Source: Zootoca vivipara (lineage: Eukaryota). Taken from it: 64,000 bases of DNA. Numbering within the stretch: the stretch's first letter is position 1; every line of letters starts with the position of its first letter. Made by a program: the position numbers. The stretch is from assembly GCF_963506605.1 (NCBI RefSeq), contig NC_083280.1:41974001-42038000 (forward strand), read 5' to 3'. Of the stretch, positions 29,372 to 35,300 are shown piece after piece.

Positions 29372-32300
29372 AATGTTCCAAGCAAACATGTACATAAAGG
29401 TATGGGCCGTGTGTCTGGAGCAGCACAGTCCTTAAACCATTTTGACTCCCAAACTGACCAAATGTTTCTCTGCAAGGAGGGAGGGGGTGAGGGAACCTTC
29501 CCATTGTCTCAGGAATTAAGTGATTACCATCTCAAAGGAATGGCCAGGCTACAAGAAAAGGCAATCAGATTAGGCATTATCAGATAACCTGGCAGACAGG
29601 AAAAACAACAACATGCAAATTTCTGTGGTGTACGGTAGGTATGATGTATCTGGGGGGTGGTCTTGAGCTACACCCCTTCTGTGATCTAGGTACAGTTTGA
29701 GGTTTCTGGGGGTGGTCTTGGACTCCAGTGTGGGCTATTTAAAATGTCTATATAAGGGCAGGCACACCTTCTTTCTGGGTCCTCCTTTCTCCTGCCTGTG
29801 AGGGCAGCACCCTGTTGCAACAGTTCAATAAAGATCAGGCTTACTACCGGTAGCTGCTTTGCTTCTCAATATTTTCTGGTTGGCCTGTTATTTTCTCCTA
29901 CCGATGGAGAAGCTACAAAGGACTCTCTATATGGGCTCTTGTGTACCCCATAAAGGAATAAGGGCAGGCTTTGTTTACAACAGTAACGTTGCAGTAATGC
30001 AACATTTTTATACATAACATCATTTTCGTAAAATTTTCTGATCGGCTTGTTTTCTGTACAGCACTTAGAGGTATTTTTGTATATTTTAAGTGGTATAGAA
30101 ATGGTCTAAAATGGGTGGAAACCCTGAAAGGTTGGAGGGGTAAGTTTTCTCACAAAATAAAGGTGGAGATTGGTGTCTGCATATTTTTATTCTTATCTGG
30201 TTCTACAAATTCTATAACCTTTCTGTAGAACGGGGCGGGTGCGAGGAAGTAGAAGCTTGTAAATCTGGTGATCACGGCTCATTAGAAGGAGCAACTACCC
30301 CAACCCCGGCGGACGCCTATATGATGTCCTTGCTTGCAACGGCTTTAGCAGGATTCGACCTGCCTTCTCCGCTCCTCGCAATACACCCTCCGAGGCAGCA
30401 GGGGGCGGTACGACACAGGCAACTCCATTCGGGAACCGAGGCTCCAAAAGACTGGGTGGCGAAGGGGGGAAATCACCGGGAAGGCGCACGGAGTTCTGAT
30501 TGGTTGCGGACGGGGCCAGAAGCAAAGGAAGCGACAGGCGGGGGAGGCGGAGCCTCACTCTTCTTGCGGTCTCGGGGCGGCAGCGGCGGCCTCTTGTCCT
30601 TCATCTCGTCGGTCGCTCCCAACCTGCCTCGCTATGACGGCGCATAGCTTCGCGCTGCCGATCATCCTCTTCTCCGTCTTCTGGGGGCTCGTGGGAATCG
30701 CCGGGCCGTGGCTCGTGCCCAAGGGGCCCAACCGCGGGTGAGGCTCCCCGCCCGCGCAGCCTCCGCCCGTCCGATCCATCGCCAGGTCTCTCTGTCATCG
30801 CCATCGCCAAATAGATTAATATATACATAGTGATCTATAATGGCGAGGGAAGGGTGGTGGTGGTCCCTGCTAAAGGCTTTGAGAATATATCTAATCTAGA
30901 TAGATAGATACGTGAGAATGACATATATGTCCAAAAGGATCACTATATAGATATATTGATATATTGGGAGATGACATGACACTCTCACACACAAAGCCTT
31001 TAGCAGGGACCAGCACCCGCTTCCCCCGCGACACTCGCAGGCTTTCCTTCTCCGCAGCCGCCTTTGGCCTTGAAGGAGGCCTGATCCCACGGATGCTGTA
31101 GAATGGGACTCCGCATCGCTTCAGACTGCCAAGTGGGGGGAATCACATTTATGAATGCTCCCTCGCGTTGGGGGAACACCAACGACCCTGCAAATAGCAA
31201 ACTAGTATAGCAGCCAAAGGGTTGGGCTAGGATATTTTTCTCTGATGAACATGGTATATAGGAGTCGGGGTGTGGGAGCAGGGAGGAAGAGCATTGAGGA
31301 GTGGCACAGCCCACTGTACCACCTCAACTTTCACCTGCATGTGTATTGCCTCATCTGGGAATCCTTTCTTGTGTGTGACCCCCTTGACTGTTTCAGTAAC
31401 AGCACAATCCTATCCATGTCTACTCGGAAGTAATTCCTAATATATTCAGTGGGATTTACTCCCAGGTAAGAAGGGTTAGGATTGCAGCTTTGCTCAATCT
31501 TTTTTTCTTTTTCTTTTTTTTTCACTTCACAGAGTGATTATTACCATGTTGGTGACCACAGCCATTTCCTGCTATCTCTTGTGAGTATTGCGTAGGGGAG
31601 ATGGGTTGTGGGTGTAGGGCTGGGTTGTACCCAGCAGGGAACCAACCACCCTCATAACTTTATCTAAGTGGCTGCTTCCTGAATATTAGAAATCTAGGAA
31701 GGAATCCCAAATAGAAGCTGCACCACCTCGGAGATACTCAAGTTGCTTCACGGTTGCCAGTTCCTTATTCTACACATAGGTGCATAAACAGCCTGCCTCT
31801 CTTTCATAAAATAAGCTTTTGGGTAATCTTGGCTCATGGTATACTGTCTCTTCCAATATGTTCTAGCATCATTCATACAGGATGCTCCCAGGACCCCATA
31901 TATGAACAAGGAGTGGATTTTGCATCCCATAACAAGCCTTAGACCATCTCTGATCATACACCAAAGCACTAGACTGTTCTAGCTGCCCTAACATCCTGTC
32001 TGGCTCAGCTGTTATGCTATGCTAGGCACTCTCAGGCATAATGCACCAGGGCAGATCTTATCTCCTTGTAGTACATTTAAAGAACTAGAAGACTTTGCTC
32101 CATAGATTGTATATCCCTTCTACAGTGATACTTTCCTCTTTATAAGAATTACTGTTACTTGCAAAAATGACCTAGCAGTTACTTGCAAAATATGTCTTTT
32201 TGTATTTCAGCACTAGTGCAAAAGGAGTTGTGATCCAGTTTATGTGTCTCCTTCCTGTCTTTCCCTTGCAGCTGGCTTATAGCACTCCTGTCCCAGGCCA

Positions 32301-35300
32301 ACCCGCTGTTTGGACCCCAGCTAAAGAATGAGACCATCTGGTATGTGCGCTTCCTGTGGGAGTGAACTGGACCACTATCAACCAATTCAACAGGTACTTG
32401 CTCTATCCAGCACTACCTAACCTACCTTAATAACACACAAATACATTAGATGCAACTCATTAATAGCTTGTAAGAAAAAGGAATCTACTTGCTTCCAGTT
32501 TACAAGTATTCCCATCCTTGGTTCCTTGCCCGACTCACCTGTCAATGGCATAGCCCAGGGATGGGGGACTTATGTTATTGGATTCTGACTCCTATTAGCT
32601 CAAGCTAATGTAGCCAATCAGGAATCATAGTCCAGCCACAACATGAGAATCATAGGTCCCATCCCTGGCTTAACCAATAGAACCAGAAAGGTACCTGTAA
32701 TCTGTCTCTAGTAGTGTTGCCACTGTGTGGTTCTATAGGACAGGTCGCTTTCTCATTGCCTGTAAATCTCACTGAAAGGGCAACAGGTTGATTGTTCCCA
32801 GATATTTTCTTTCCTGCTGGGGTAAGGGCAATGCTAAGAAATCTTTTTCTCTTTTTCCTAGGCTTCCTTCTGATGCTAGCTAACAGCTCCACCCCTTGTC
32901 CTTTCCAGTACTAGCTCAACGGATCTTTTGTTTGCACTCTAAATTTCCCCACAACAGTAGAGCCAAGACCCAAACATATGAAGGGACCATTTCACTTGTT
33001 TAACCATCTCCCACCTGTTTTAATTGATGCATCTTGGTGGCATCTGCTCTTGGGTTTGATGTTGTAACTAAATATCCCTCTCTTGGCAGTTAGGGAAAAT
33101 ATTTGCATTTTGAAAGTCCTGTAATGAACGCTAAGATTGAATAATTGCTGATGGAGCTCTGGAACACCTTCTTGGGCAAGTGACAAGACACCTTCCTTAC
33201 TTTAACCTGCTGACGCTCGCCCAATAGATCGGTTCTCTCCCTATCTTTGTCGATTAGCAGTGAGGCTGCTGCACTAGGATGCATTTGCCTAGAATTCCCC
33301 CTTCCACTATTATTTATAATGTTGTGTATTTGTATTTGTATTTATTGAGTGTAAACTGGTATCGTGAAAATAAATTTTTTTAGTATGTGATCTTTGTCTT
33401 CTGTTAAAGAGATCTGATATGGGGCCCAGAAGTGCTTGAAAGTCAGCCAGGGTAATACTCCAGCCTCCATCCATAGCATCTAATTGGTACTGGGCTGAAA
33501 TCAAAATTGGTCTGTGTTTCCTGACAAGGAGCACTTCAGTAAACTATCCAGGTGGTGTAAGCAACCAAGCCACTGCAAATTTCCAGGCTAGGATTTATGA
33601 TAGTAACCCTATCGTGTTCAGGACCATACAGCAATAAAGCAAGTTCTTTTCCTTAGGCCTACAGTTGTAGATTGGTTCTCATTCTTGAGCACAGGTGAGT
33701 AATTATGCTTTTTACAGCTATTAGTGATCTACACCAGGCATCCCCAAACTGCAGCCCTCCAGATGTTTTGGCCTACAACTCCCATGATCCCTAGCTGACA
33801 GGACCAGTGGTCAGGGATGATGGGGATTGTAGTCCAAAACATCTGGGGGGGGGCGAAGTTTGGGGATGCCTGATCTACACCAACCAACCAACTTCCAGCA
33901 CAACTAGCATCAAGAAACTCTGCTTAAACAGTTCAGCATAATTTATTGCTACAGTAACTGGAGTTCAAGTATGAAAACAAATTCATAATGTAACTTAGCC
34001 CATAGTTGATTGAGTTTATAGGCTAGTTGGAACTTGGAACTGCTGGAAGCCCCAGTGCTGGGACAACAGCACTGAGACACACTGAATGATGGGTAAATGT
34101 GGGATTTGAAAGGAGTGTGTGCAAAATGTATTTGTGGGGAGGAGTGTGAAGGAAGGCAGCAAATTATCTGCCTTGGGATTTTTTAAAGGTTATTTCTTAC
34201 CCTCAAGGAATCCTGTTTGCACGACTCCTTTTTTGGTCCTATCACAGACATCAACAGAAGGGGGGGCTGTGCTCATAGTAAAGCACCAGAAAGAACCACT
34301 TTCTTTCCTTTTGCAGGAGACCTGTCCAGTTCTTGGCCACACAAGGTCCTTCTCCCTCCCTTCCTGAGTAAATCGAGTTTCTTTGGTCACTTTCAGCTAT
34401 GCTGCCTTTTGCCCACTGTCAAAGGTAGCAGAGATCAGCTTCCCTTGCCTCACGGCACCCGCAGCGTGATTCTCCCACAGTGGCTGGGGATTCCAGCCAC
34501 GGAGGAAAATCTAGAGTCCATTAGGGTTGAGCGGCTTGGGTTAGGGGGCAAGTCTGAGCAGACATTGTTTAGGCCCTGGGGTTGGGCTGGAGTCCTGCAG
34601 AATTCCGGACTAGGCCGCAAGAGAATCACAGCTTCTGGCCCATTAAAAGCCACTGCCAATAGGGCAGACATGGAGAGAGTTCACTGAGAGGTAGTTCTTT
34701 TGTCAGGAGGCTGCCTCCTGTGCTGGCAGCGGCACCACTTCTGCTAGCCACAGCAGGTCCAGCTGTTTCTGGTGGATGCGGCGCAGACGGAAGAGGTAGA
34801 GTCCAATTGCAAGCATCACCACAAGGATGCACACAAAGAAAAGATAGTGGTTATAAACAAAGGAGAGACGGAGCCAAGGGCTGCGAGGTTGATGGACGCT
34901 CTCCTGGCGGAGATCCCTGAAAAACAAAGAAAAATCAGTCTGAAGTTGAAATGTGGAGCTGCGCTAAGCTTGAGTCTCTCTTGCAACTAGCAGACAAGCA
35001 TTCCAGATACTGCAGTAAGTATGATTCCCAAATACCTGGCTTTTCTCAGGCCTATGCCCTACAGACCATTTGTAAATGAATGAGAGGTGTCAAAAACATA
35101 GGTTTAGCTTTTTAACGGCTTAAGACACCATGTTGCCTACTGATAAAGGATCAACTTCCTTTTCATGCAGGCTCTGTGCTTCATCGAGGGTGCATTTGAT
35201 GTCTCTCCTTTAGGTACCTCTTAAAAACATACCAGGTCTCTGCTTTCTCCTTTTCTGTTTTTTTCAGAAAAGCACTGCTGGCAGATCACTCGGTTTCTCA

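What the first reader, a model, noticed from the sequence alone, without database searches (positions are those of the whole stretch)
30634..33395. Intron-containing ATP6V0E2-type gene between COX15 and ENTPD7: probable ancestral ohnolog location
Seen in sequence: an intact 81-aa V-ATPase e subunit gene with e2-like termini (MTAHSFALP...WYVRFLWE), missed by the ORF track. Established: in human, COX15 and ENTPD7 are adjacent with no such gene, and ATP6V0E2 is on 7q36. ATP6V0E1 lies beside NKX2-5 (5q35), and ENTPD4-SLC25A37-NKX2-6 (8p21) is the sister block of ENTPD7-SLC25A28-NKX2-3. Inference: this is the original whole-genome-duplication position, so either mammalian E2 relocated or this is a third e-subunit paralog lost in mammals.
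Basis: partly seen in the sequence, partly recalled or inferred. Interest (0 to 1): 0.75.

Follow-up and report, generated by a model that had tools for sequence, protein, structure and literature searches.

The report
Lizard ATP6V0E2 gene beside COX15
This is an ordinary, intact lizard copy of the proton-pump subunit gene ATP6V0E2; it sits between COX15 and ENTPD7, probably its original position, whereas mammals carry the gene elsewhere.

Summary
Window 30634-32365 (+) carries three coding exons with GT-AG introns. They read, exon by exon, as an 81-codon V-ATPase subunit e of the e2 type. A CpG island lies upstream and AATAAA is at 33369. The window looks like a lacertid lizard, not human: the best match is Podarcis lilfordi VA0E2.

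Gene order in the window is CUTC(-), COX15(+), e2(+), ENTPD7(-), SLC25A28(+), NK2 homeobox(-).

The gene is already annotated as ATP6V0E2 in lizards, birds, turtles, frogs, fishes and sharks. A sparrow gene model splices COX15 exon 5 onto e2 exon 3, so a bird shares the arrangement. A marmot model fuses ZNF862 to e2, which marks the different mammalian locus.

In the maximum-likelihood tree the lizard protein sits inside a species-tree-ordered E2 clade. AU tests on 81 columns cannot formally exclude an old third paralogue.

A 2025 paper already lists atp6v0e1/2 with slc25a28/37 and entpd4/7 as paralogous neighbours of the NK4 genes. Positions in frog, gar and shark could not be checked here.

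Verdict: known gene, largely known synteny, low interest.

The parts
30001..30633 (+). CpG-island promoter and 5'UTR region of the e2 gene
   Evidence: Window 30001-31000 has GC 0.51 and CpG o/e 0.92. The frame upstream of the ATG is open, which explains the N-terminally extended database model P0003. The transcription start was not mapped.
30634..30737 (+). Coding exon 1: M1-R34 plus two bases of codon 35
   Evidence: Translation P0001. The donor is GCGG|GTGAGG. phmmer gives 62.6 bits to rat e2 (6vq6_e) against 39.7 to e1 (6wlw_S). The stop-to-stop frame is 100% identical over 40 aa to Podarcis lilfordi VA0E2.
30738..31532 (+). Intron 1 (GT...AG) with a palindromic insert
   Evidence: Splice contexts are. 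Inverted repeat arms lie at 30847-30881 and 30992-31026 (35 nt, 86% complementary), with a second nested pair.
31533..31580 (+). Coding exon 2: last base of codon 35, V36-L50, two bases of codon 51
   Evidence: Translation VIITMLVTTAISCYL. It matches P0003 at 15 of 15 residues. The acceptor is CACAG| and the donor |GTGAGT.
31581..32271 (+). Intron 2 (GT...AG)
   Evidence: Splice contexts are. The same boundary shows in database isoforms that diverge after residue 50: Mus spicilegus P0063, Mastomys P0062 and Eretmochelys P0064.
32272..32365 (+). Coding exon 3: last base of codon 51, W52-E81, stop TGA
   Evidence: Translation P0002. It scores 57.5 bits to e2 against 48.1 to e1. It matches P0003 at 29 of 30 residues; the window has S58 where P0003 has A.
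32366..33395 (+). 3'UTR up to the polyadenylation signal, with a putative 3'UTR intron at 32394-32861
   Evidence: AATAAA is at 33369. ACAG|GTACTT at 32393/32394 and TTTTTCCTAG| at 32861 can be read. The intron is inferred only; there are no transcript data.
20023..25823 (+). COX15 (upstream neighbour, same strand), nine exon-bearing frames
   Evidence: Frames are listed. Four frames were tested and all four match Pfam COX15-CtaA above its cut-off (66.8, 54.8, 68.0 and 32.3 bits).
34706..49729 (-). ENTPD7-like gene (downstream neighbour, convergent)
   Evidence: Frames are listed. Three frames were tested and all three match Pfam GDA1_CD39 (29.6, 43.3 and 48.2 bits). The call of ENTPD7 rather than ENTPD4 rests on my reading and on its neighbours. 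The Atlas search gave no usable hit.
53199..55730 (+). SLC25A28-like mitochondrial carrier
   Evidence: Frames are listed. It matches Pfam Mito_carr at 128.5 bits. The paralogue-level name is from my reading.
61803..62540 (-). NK2-class homeobox exon (NKX2-3-like by position)
   Evidence: Pfam Homeodomain at 72.4 bits. The nearest Atlas clusters are homeobox proteins, including one named Nkx-2.5. These tools do not resolve NKX2-3 as such.
13988..16888 (-). CUTC, head to head with COX15 across the CpG island at 19-20 kb
   Evidence: Frames are listed. It matches Pfam CutC at 79.2 bits.

Best explanation
The feature is the lizard orthologue of ATP6V0E2. This gene encodes the 81-residue, two-helix 'e2' isoform of subunit e of the membrane (V0) sector of the vacuolar proton ATPase. 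It is transcribed from a CpG-island promoter, has three coding exons, and ends tail to tail with ENTPD7.

It lies in the NKX2-3 / SLC25A28 / ENTPD7 / COX15 / CUTC block. Its paralogue ATP6V0E1 lies in the sister block next to BNIP1 and NKX2-5. The simplest reading is therefore that e1 and e2 were separated by a vertebrate whole-genome duplication and that this is e2's original position, kept in lizards and birds. The mammalian gene was later moved as genomic DNA, introns included, to a place just downstream of ZNF862.

Shown here: the gene model, its e2 type, the neighbours, and the same arrangement in one bird.

Inferred: that the position is ancestral, and the direction and timing of the move.
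For: Gene and type:
- e2 beats e1 in solved structures for both long exons: 62.6 against 39.7 bits and 57.5 against 48.1 bits.
- Per-exon identities are highest to sauropsid e2, then mammalian e2, and lowest to e1. Medians are 29, 28 and 18 of 34 for exon 1, and 28, 27 and 21 of 30 for exon 3.
- At all six columns where the 33 e1 rows share no residue with the 16 amniote e2 rows, the window has the e2 state: T2, A3, F13, G24, V76, L79.
- All named rows among the 75 hits carry e2-type or uninformative names. None is named e1.

Orthology:
- The tree has 66 hand-picked named rows, with P0003 standing in for the window. E2 is one clade (97/98*) and tetrapod E2 is one clade (95/90*).
- The branching order is sharks, ray-finned fishes, frog, then mammals beside lizards plus birds.
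- Lizard e2 identity falls with divergence: bird 73, mammal 70, frog 65, shark 61, lizard e1 52, each of 81.

Position:
- Zonotrichia albicollis model P0078 is 47/51 identical to the window's COX15 exon-5 frame and 30/32 identical to the e2 exon-3 frame. It carries both Pfam families.
- Marmota model P0100 joins the hAT-dimerisation domain of ZNF862 to a complete e2.

Paralogon:
- ERGIC1, RPL26L1, ATP6V0E1, CREBRF, BNIP1 and NKX2-5 lie in one 121-kb chicken region.
- NKX2-5, BNIP1A and ATP6V0E1 are neighbours in stickleback.
- The PMC12019251 legend lists atp6v0e1/2, slc25a28/37 and entpd4/7 as paralogous families at the NK4 loci.

Intron positions: the boundaries after residues 35 and 50/51 recur in isoforms of alligator, turtle, platypus, skink, quail, killifish and murids. 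This argues against retroposition.
Against: - No outgroup position was seen. Frog, gar, coelacanth and shark loci could not be examined, and I could not view Fig. 1A or Supplemental Data 2 of PMC12019251.
- The AU tests do not reject trees in which the sauropsid genes (p 0.154) or the mammalian genes (p 0.173) fall outside the remaining E2. They do not reject even sauropsid e2 placed with e1 (p 0.09). With 81 columns the tree has little power.
- E1 is not recovered as one clade in the rooted tree.
- The bird evidence is a single automatic gene model. It shows the same scaffold, strand and order, not the distance.
- The ENTPD7, SLC25A28 and NKX2-3 names are at family level by tool and at paralogue level only by my reading.
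- The human positions (10q24, 7q36, 5q35) are from my own knowledge and from search listings, not from a genome look-up.
Confidence: 0.75

Rival explanations
1. Lineage-specific transposition: e2 originally lay at the mammal-like locus and was moved into the COX15-ENTPD7 interval in the ancestor of lizards and birds.
For: Only sauropsids were seen with this arrangement: the window, and the sparrow model P0078. No outgroup locus was examined.
Against: e2 would then have landed by chance about 30 kb from NKX2-3, inside the block that is paralogous to the one holding e1 next to NKX2-5. PMC12019251 lists atp6v0e1/2 among the families that are paralogous between the NK4 loci.
Confidence: 0.12
2. 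Third paralogue (hidden paralogy): the sauropsid gene and the mammalian ATP6V0E2 are different duplicates from the whole-genome duplications, each lost in the other lineage.
For: The AU tests do not reject sauropsid or mammalian e2 lying outside the remaining E2 (p 0.154 and 0.173). The two genes sit at different loci.
Against: - The best tree nests both genes in a tetrapod E2 clade (95/90*) in species-tree order.
- Lizard e2 is closer to mammalian e2 (70/81) than to frog (65), shark (61) or sturgeon e2 (60).
- The MTAHSF start and WYVRFLWE end are shared by the one frog row with a normal C-terminus (Rhinophrynus), the mammals and the sauropsids, but not by the 11 fish and shark e2 rows.
- No species in the listed hits shows two e2-type proteins with different names. 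These are clustered and truncated lists, so this is weak evidence.
Confidence: 0.05
3. Non-functional relic: a decaying copy that only looks intact.
For: None found. One unusual residue (S58, where 29 other e2 rows have A and 4 also have S, of 33) is the only oddity.
Against: - The frame is open across all three exons, with canonical splice sites, a CpG-island promoter and a polyadenylation signal.
- 78 of 79 separately translated residues are identical to the P. lilfordi protein.
- It is the only e2-type sequence in the window.
Confidence: 0.02

Closest known systems
Mammalian ATP6V0E2 (V-type proton ATPase subunit e 2; solved in rat and bovine brain V-ATPase, e.g. 6vq6 chain e and 6xbw chain e)
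   Same: Both have 81 codons. Both start MTAHSFALP and end WYVRFLWE. The exon boundaries after residues 35 and 50/51 are the same where database isoforms reveal them. Identity of the lizard stand-in P0003 to mammalian e2 is 69-70 of 81.
   Different: The chromosomal place differs. Here the gene lies between COX15 and ENTPD7. In a marmot model it is read through from ZNF862. In human it is at 7q36.1 (my knowledge; listing). There are a few substitutions, such as A60 where mammals have L.
Sauropsid ATP6V0E2 as annotated in public databases (Podarcis lilfordi VA0E2, Tiliqua scincoides, Rhineura floridana, many birds)
   Same: It is the same gene. Matches to P. lilfordi are 34/34, 15/15 and 29/30 residues for the three exons. 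A sparrow model links it to COX15 in the same order and on the same strand.
   Different: There is one residue difference (S58 against A). The upstream in-frame stretch diverges (60-67%), so the window is a related lacertid rather than the P. lilfordi record itself.
ATP6V0E1 (subunit e 1), next to BNIP1 and NKX2-5
   Same: It has the same family, length and central core (PKGPNRGVI..., [15 protein letters not shown]). It lies beside an NK4-class homeobox gene in a paralogous block.
   Different: Lizard e2 and lizard e1 share 52 of 81 residues. The termini differ (MAY... and ...HWP). It scores lower against both long exons.
NK4 paralogon microsynteny of PMC12019251 (Nat Commun 2025), Fig. 1A
   Same: It names the same gene families as ohnologous neighbours: atp6v0e1/2, slc25a28/37, entpd4/7, nkx2.3/2.5/2.6 (legend and section 6). 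The species sampled were human, mouse, chicken, frog, zebrafish, gar, zebra shark and thorny skate.
   Different: No squamate was sampled. The text says nothing about COX15 or about the mammalian gene having moved. Which locus carries atp6v0e2 in which species appears only in the figure and supplement, which I could not see.

Membership tests
V-ATPase subunit e (Pfam PF05493, ATP_synt_H / Vma9 type) | Match to the family profile | tested here: met
   Each long exon holds half of the 62-position profile. Each scores just under the 25-bit cut-off on its own: 22.7 bits for positions 1-27 and 22.6 bits for positions 35-62. The full-length lizard stand-in P0003 scores 81.7 bits. The joined window protein was not scanned.
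V-ATPase subunit e (Pfam PF05493, ATP_synt_H / Vma9 type) | End-to-end likeness to subunit e chains in solved V-ATPase structures | tested here: met
   Exon 1 aligns to residues 1-34 and exon 3 to residues 52-81 of 6vq6_e, 6xbw_e and 6wlw_S, with E-values from 5.6e-17 to 2.2e-12.
V-ATPase subunit e (Pfam PF05493, ATP_synt_H / Vma9 type) | About 80 residues with two hydrophobic helices joined by the PKGPNRG loop | tested here: met
   The count is 34 + 15 + 30 residues plus two split codons, giving 81. The hydrophobic runs [22 protein letters not shown] and VIITMLVTTAISCYL / WLIALLSQ flank PKGPNR. The helices are read by eye, not predicted.
e2 isoform (ATP6V0E2 orthology group) | Closer to e2 than to e1 | tested here: met
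   Scores are 62.6 against 39.7 bits and 57.5 against 48.1 bits. Per-exon identities and six diagnostic columns all show the e2 state.
e2 isoform (ATP6V0E2 orthology group) | Falls inside the E2 clade together with mammalian e2 | tested here: inconclusive
   The best tree says yes: E2 97/98*, tetrapod E2 95/90*, amniote E2 83/83 (with stand-in P0003). The AU tests do not reject the alternatives (p 0.154, 0.173, 0.09).
e2 isoform (ATP6V0E2 orthology group) | Same chromosomal neighbourhood as mammalian ATP6V0E2 (ZNF862 side) | tested here: not met
   The neighbours here are COX15 and ENTPD7. No ZNF862-like hAT gene was noticed in the frames I read. The marmot model shows the ZNF862 link. Shared synteny is supporting evidence for orthology, not a requirement.
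Whole-genome-duplication pair within the NK4 (NKX2-3 / NKX2-5) paralogon | e2 linked to NKX2-3-type, SLC25A28-type and ENTPD7-type genes | tested here: met
   All lie within about 32 kb of the e2 gene in the window. Paralogue-level names are from my reading.
Whole-genome-duplication pair within the NK4 (NKX2-3 / NKX2-5) paralogon | e1 linked to NKX2-5 | tested here: met
   This rests on passages in two papers: chicken GGA13 9.81-9.94 Mb and stickleback chromosome 4. There was no genome look-up.
Whole-genome-duplication pair within the NK4 (NKX2-3 / NKX2-5) paralogon | Outgroups (frog, gar, coelacanth, shark) carry e2 at the NKX2-3 block | not testable with these tools
   No vertebrate genome collection was available.

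The most novel reading that the evidence does not exclude
In the stem lineage of mammals the whole e2 gene, introns included, was cut out of the COX15-ENTPD7 interval and inserted directly downstream of ZNF862. ZNF862 is a gene derived from a hAT transposase, and e2 now forms read-through transcripts with it. The move could itself have been carried out by hAT-type transposition or gene capture. That would make ATP6V0E2 a rare vertebrate case of a housekeeping-complex gene relocated by a DNA transposon.
Probability: 0.06. Interest if true: 0.5.

Novelty: already known. Interest (0 to 1): 0.18.

Why it matters
It matters little for function. The gene is a routinely annotated V-ATPase subunit.

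For genome evolution it is a tidy small example. Sauropsids keep e2 in the NKX2-3 block, which mirrors e1 beside NKX2-5. This supports the 2R paralogon picture and marks mammalian ATP6V0E2 as a relocated gene.

The practical lesson concerns annotation: three short exons escape ORF-based tracks.

I found no paper text stating that the mammalian gene moved. The underlying microsynteny, however, is already used in PMC12019251.

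Tried and rejected
I then sent the window's own stop-to-stop frames that contain exon 1 and exon 3.
- Paper searches pairing ATP6V0E2 with ENTPD7 (1 paper), COX15 (8), SLC25A28 (1), CUTC (4), nkx2* (10) and synteny (2) gave only expression or deletion lists. Pairing ATP6V0E1 and ATP6V0E2 with ohnolog* gave 0 papers. None of the listed titles or abstracts concerns gene order (listings only).
- I looked for further fused gene models that might reveal neighbours in fishes or frogs. 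Seven long named models were scanned and all seven carry only PF05493. Of 10 long representatives looked up, 4 had organism names and none was informative.
- Atlas searches to settle NKX2-3 and ENTPD7 at paralogue level failed. The first stops at 'NK2-type homeobox' and the second gave no usable hit.
- AU tests of three alternative placements were not decisive.
- An alternative last exon like that of Rhineura isoform X1 is recognisable at 33090 but closes after 7 codons. I do not count it as part of the gene.
- The bacterial-type promoter and terminator scan of 33300-34800 is irrelevant to a vertebrate gene and gave nothing above chance.
- I did not fold the protein or predict a complex. The sequence matches to solved structures made that unnecessary.

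Full report
WHAT IS THERE

On the + strand, an ATG at 30634 opens a frame that runs to a GT donor at 30738. A 48-base exon lies at 31533-31580, bounded by AG and GT. A third exon starts after the AG at 32270-32271 and ends with TGA at 32363-32365.

Translated one by one, the exons give 34, 15 and 30 residues. Two codons are split by the introns, GG|A and TT|C, so the gene has 81 codons. I kept to the exon-by-exon rule and left out the joined step.

Where a full-length sequence was needed, I used the database protein P0003 (VA0E2 ATPase, Podarcis lilfordi). It matches the three exons at 34/34, 15/15 and 29/30 residues.

Window 30001-31000 is a CpG island, with GC 0.51 and CpG observed/expected 0.92. 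tblastn with lizard e2, echidna e2 and lizard e1 finds only these three exons above noise, so the window holds a single copy.

WHAT KIND OF GENE

Both long exons match subunit e chains of solved V-ATPases from end to end, and e2 scores better than e1:
- Exon 1 scores 62.6 bits to rat e2 (6vq6_e) and 39.7 bits to e1 (6wlw_S).
- Exon 3 scores 57.5 bits to e2 and 48.1 bits to e1.

The Pfam ATP_synt_H profile is split between the two exons (22.7 and 22.6 bits, each just under the 25-bit cut-off). The stand-in P0003 scores 81.7 bits.

Per-exon identities rank sauropsid e2 first, then mammalian e2, then frog e2. Fish and shark e2 and e1 come last. At the six columns where 33 e1 rows and 16 amniote e2 rows share no residue, the window shows the e2 state every time.

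Function follows from the family. The product is a small two-helix membrane subunit of the V0 sector of the vacuolar proton pump. That assignment is from family knowledge and was not tested here.

WHOSE GENOME

The frame that contains exon 1 is 100% identical over 40 residues to P. lilfordi VA0E2, including five codons upstream of the ATG. Further upstream the match falls to 60-67%, and exon 3 differs by one residue.

I therefore take the window for a lacertid lizard close to Podarcis, but not that record itself. It is not human.

NEIGHBOURS

Stop-to-stop frames read, checked against Pfam (10 frames sent, 10 matched), give this order:
- CUTC (-, 13988-16888)
- a CpG island at 19-20 kb
- COX15 (+, nine frames, 20023-25823)
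- the e2 gene (+, 30634-33395)
- a GDA1/CD39 gene that reads as ENTPD7 (-, 34706-49729), with a CpG island at 51-53 kb
- a mitochondrial carrier that reads as SLC25A28 (+, 53199-55730)
- an NK2-class homeobox exon (-, 61803-62540)

The family assignments come from tools. The paralogue-level names ENTPD7, SLC25A28 and NKX2-3 come from my reading and from the company of the single-copy genes CUTC and COX15. The Atlas searches did not settle them.

IS IT KNOWN

Yes. Proteins named 'V-type proton ATPase subunit e 2' or VA0E2 exist for lizards (Podarcis, Tiliqua, Rhineura), many birds, a turtle, echidna, frogs, sturgeon, teleosts, sharks and rays. Further turtle, alligator and platypus rows are recognisable e2 proteins under other or uninformative names. 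Search totals:
- 75 of 77 candidates at E <= 0.001
- 62 of 68 candidates
- 335 of 342 candidates, of which the best 120 were listed

'Missed by the ORF track' is a property of ORF tracks and short exons, not of public annotation.

SAME ARRANGEMENT ELSEWHERE

One hit is a 90-residue UniProt model from the white-throated sparrow (P0078). It carries the COX15 Pfam family.
- Its residues 1-51 are 47/51 identical to the window's COX15 exon-5 frame.
- Its residues 59-90 are 30/32 identical to the e2 exon-3 frame.
- Pfam finds both families in it.

An automatic model can splice these together only if COX15 lies upstream of e2 on the same strand of the same scaffold. So a bird shares the lizard arrangement.

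By contrast, an 811-residue marmot model (P0100, 'zinc finger protein 862 isoform X7') joins a hAT-dimerisation domain protein to a complete e2. This marks the different mammalian neighbourhood. Two case-report listings place ATP6V0E2 and ZNF862 together in 7q35-q36 deletions or duplications (listings only).

ORTHOLOGUE OR THIRD PARALOGUE

I built a tree from 66 named rows chosen by hand from the several hundred proteins held by then: 30 e2, 33 e1 and 3 invertebrate outgroups. I left out three rows with aberrant C-termini (Pelobates, Engystomops, Lepidochelys), all unnamed rows and all primates. The results were:
- E2 is one clade (97/98*).
- Tetrapod E2 is one clade (95/90*).
- The order is sharks and rays, ray-finned fishes, frog, then mammals beside lizards plus birds.
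- Podarcis pairs with Tiliqua (97/83*).

Lizard e2 identity falls in step with divergence:

| Compared with | Identical residues of 81 |
|---|---|
| bird e2 | 73 |
| mammal e2 | 69-70 |
| frog e2 | 65 |
| shark e2 | 61 |
| sturgeon e2 | 60 |
| lizard e1 | 52 |

The start MTAHSF and the end WYVRFLWE are shared by the frog row with a normal C-terminus (Rhinophrynus), the mammals and the sauropsids, but not by the fish and shark e2 rows. All this is what orthology predicts.

Evidence against a firm conclusion:
- The AU tests do not reject a tree with the sauropsid genes outside the other E2 (lnL 10.2 worse, p 0.154).
- They do not reject one with the mammalian genes outside (7.8 worse, p 0.173).
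- They do not reject sauropsid e2 held with e1 (11.9 worse, p 0.09).
- E1 is not recovered as a clade.

Eighty-one columns cannot settle it formally. I rate the third-paralogue reading at about 0.05.

ANCESTRAL POSITION

- In chicken, one 121-kb region of GGA13 holds ERGIC1, RPL26L1, ATP6V0E1, CREBRF, BNIP1 and NKX2-5 (PMC12108394, passages and table).
- In stickleback chromosome 4 the order is ...STC2A, NKX2-5, BNIP1A, ATP6V0E1... (PMC5719529, figure legend).
- PMC12019251 (Nat Commun 2025) analyses microsynteny around nkx2.3, nkx2.5, nkx2.6/7 and nkx2.5l in human, mouse, chicken, frog, zebrafish, gar, zebra shark and thorny skate.
- The legend of its Fig. 1A lists slc25a28/37, entpd4/7, bnip1, crebrf/rfl and atp6v0e1/2 among the paralogous neighbouring families. 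It derives the four loci from one pre-duplication locus. I read section 6 in full and passages from its other sections.

So e1 and e2 as members of this paralogon are already in print. The figure itself and Supplemental Data 2 say which locus carries atp6v0e2 in which species. Neither is held or open here, so I cannot say whether they already show e2 at the nkx2.3 locus in outgroups.

HOW THE MAMMALIAN GENE MOVED

This part is inference. Database isoforms that diverge or begin at exon edges show the same boundaries after residue 35 (alligator, platypus, skink, killifish) and after residue 50/51 (two murids, a turtle, quail). The mammalian gene therefore kept its introns and was not retroposed.

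It now lies directly behind a hAT-transposase-derived gene. That invites the idea of a transposon-mediated move, but it does not show one.

VERDICT

The gene is known, the synteny is largely known, and interest is low.

Noticed in passing
window 13988-62540: The whole block CUTC, COX15, e2, ENTPD7-like, SLC25A28-like and an NK2 homeobox exon fits in about 50 kb. There are three divergent or bidirectional CpG islands: 19-20 kb between CUTC and COX15, 51-53 kb between ENTPD7 and SLC25A28, and 59-64 kb around the homeobox gene.
   Followed up: partly
window 30819-31026 (intron 1 of the e2 gene): There is a nested palindrome. Arms lie at 30847-30881 and 30992-31026 (35 nt, 86% complementary), with inner arms at 30819-30835 and 30938-30954 around an AT-rich core. 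It looks like a small foldback or MITE-like insert.
   Followed up: no
window 32336-32345 (inside exon 3, codons W74-Y75-V76): The coding sequence ATCTG|GTATGTG contains a good internal splice-donor consensus. Database isoforms of Rhineura (P0010), Lepidochelys (P0065), Cygnus (P0179) and Rhincodon (P0113) all diverge or stop exactly after ...KNETI/V. That suggests a widely predicted alternative 3' end.
   Followed up: partly
window 33090-33179: A stretch resembles the alternative last exon of Rhineura isoform X1 (LGK...). In this lizard it closes after 7 codons, so that isoform would be truncated here.
   Followed up: partly
window 3-503 (+) and 10673-11017 (+): Open frames carry the motif ...RLDYCN.LY.GLP..., which I recall from vertebrate LINE reverse-transcriptase 3' ends. 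They are probably retroelement remnants. They were not searched.
   Followed up: no
window 43702-43875 (-) and 48673-48846 (-): Two identical 58-codon frames lie 4971 bases apart inside the long ENTPD7 intron. This points to a duplicated or repeated element.
   Followed up: no
protein P0100 (Marmota flaviventris), not in the window: A ZNF862-ATP6V0E2 read-through model joins a hAT-dimerisation domain protein to a full e2. It shows how close the two genes are in a mammal.
   Followed up: partly
window 32285-32293 (codon 58): The window has S58 (LLSQANPL), where P. lilfordi and 28 other e2 rows of the 33 have A. Four other e2 rows also have S or a different residue there. It is probably a harmless lineage difference.
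   Followed up: no
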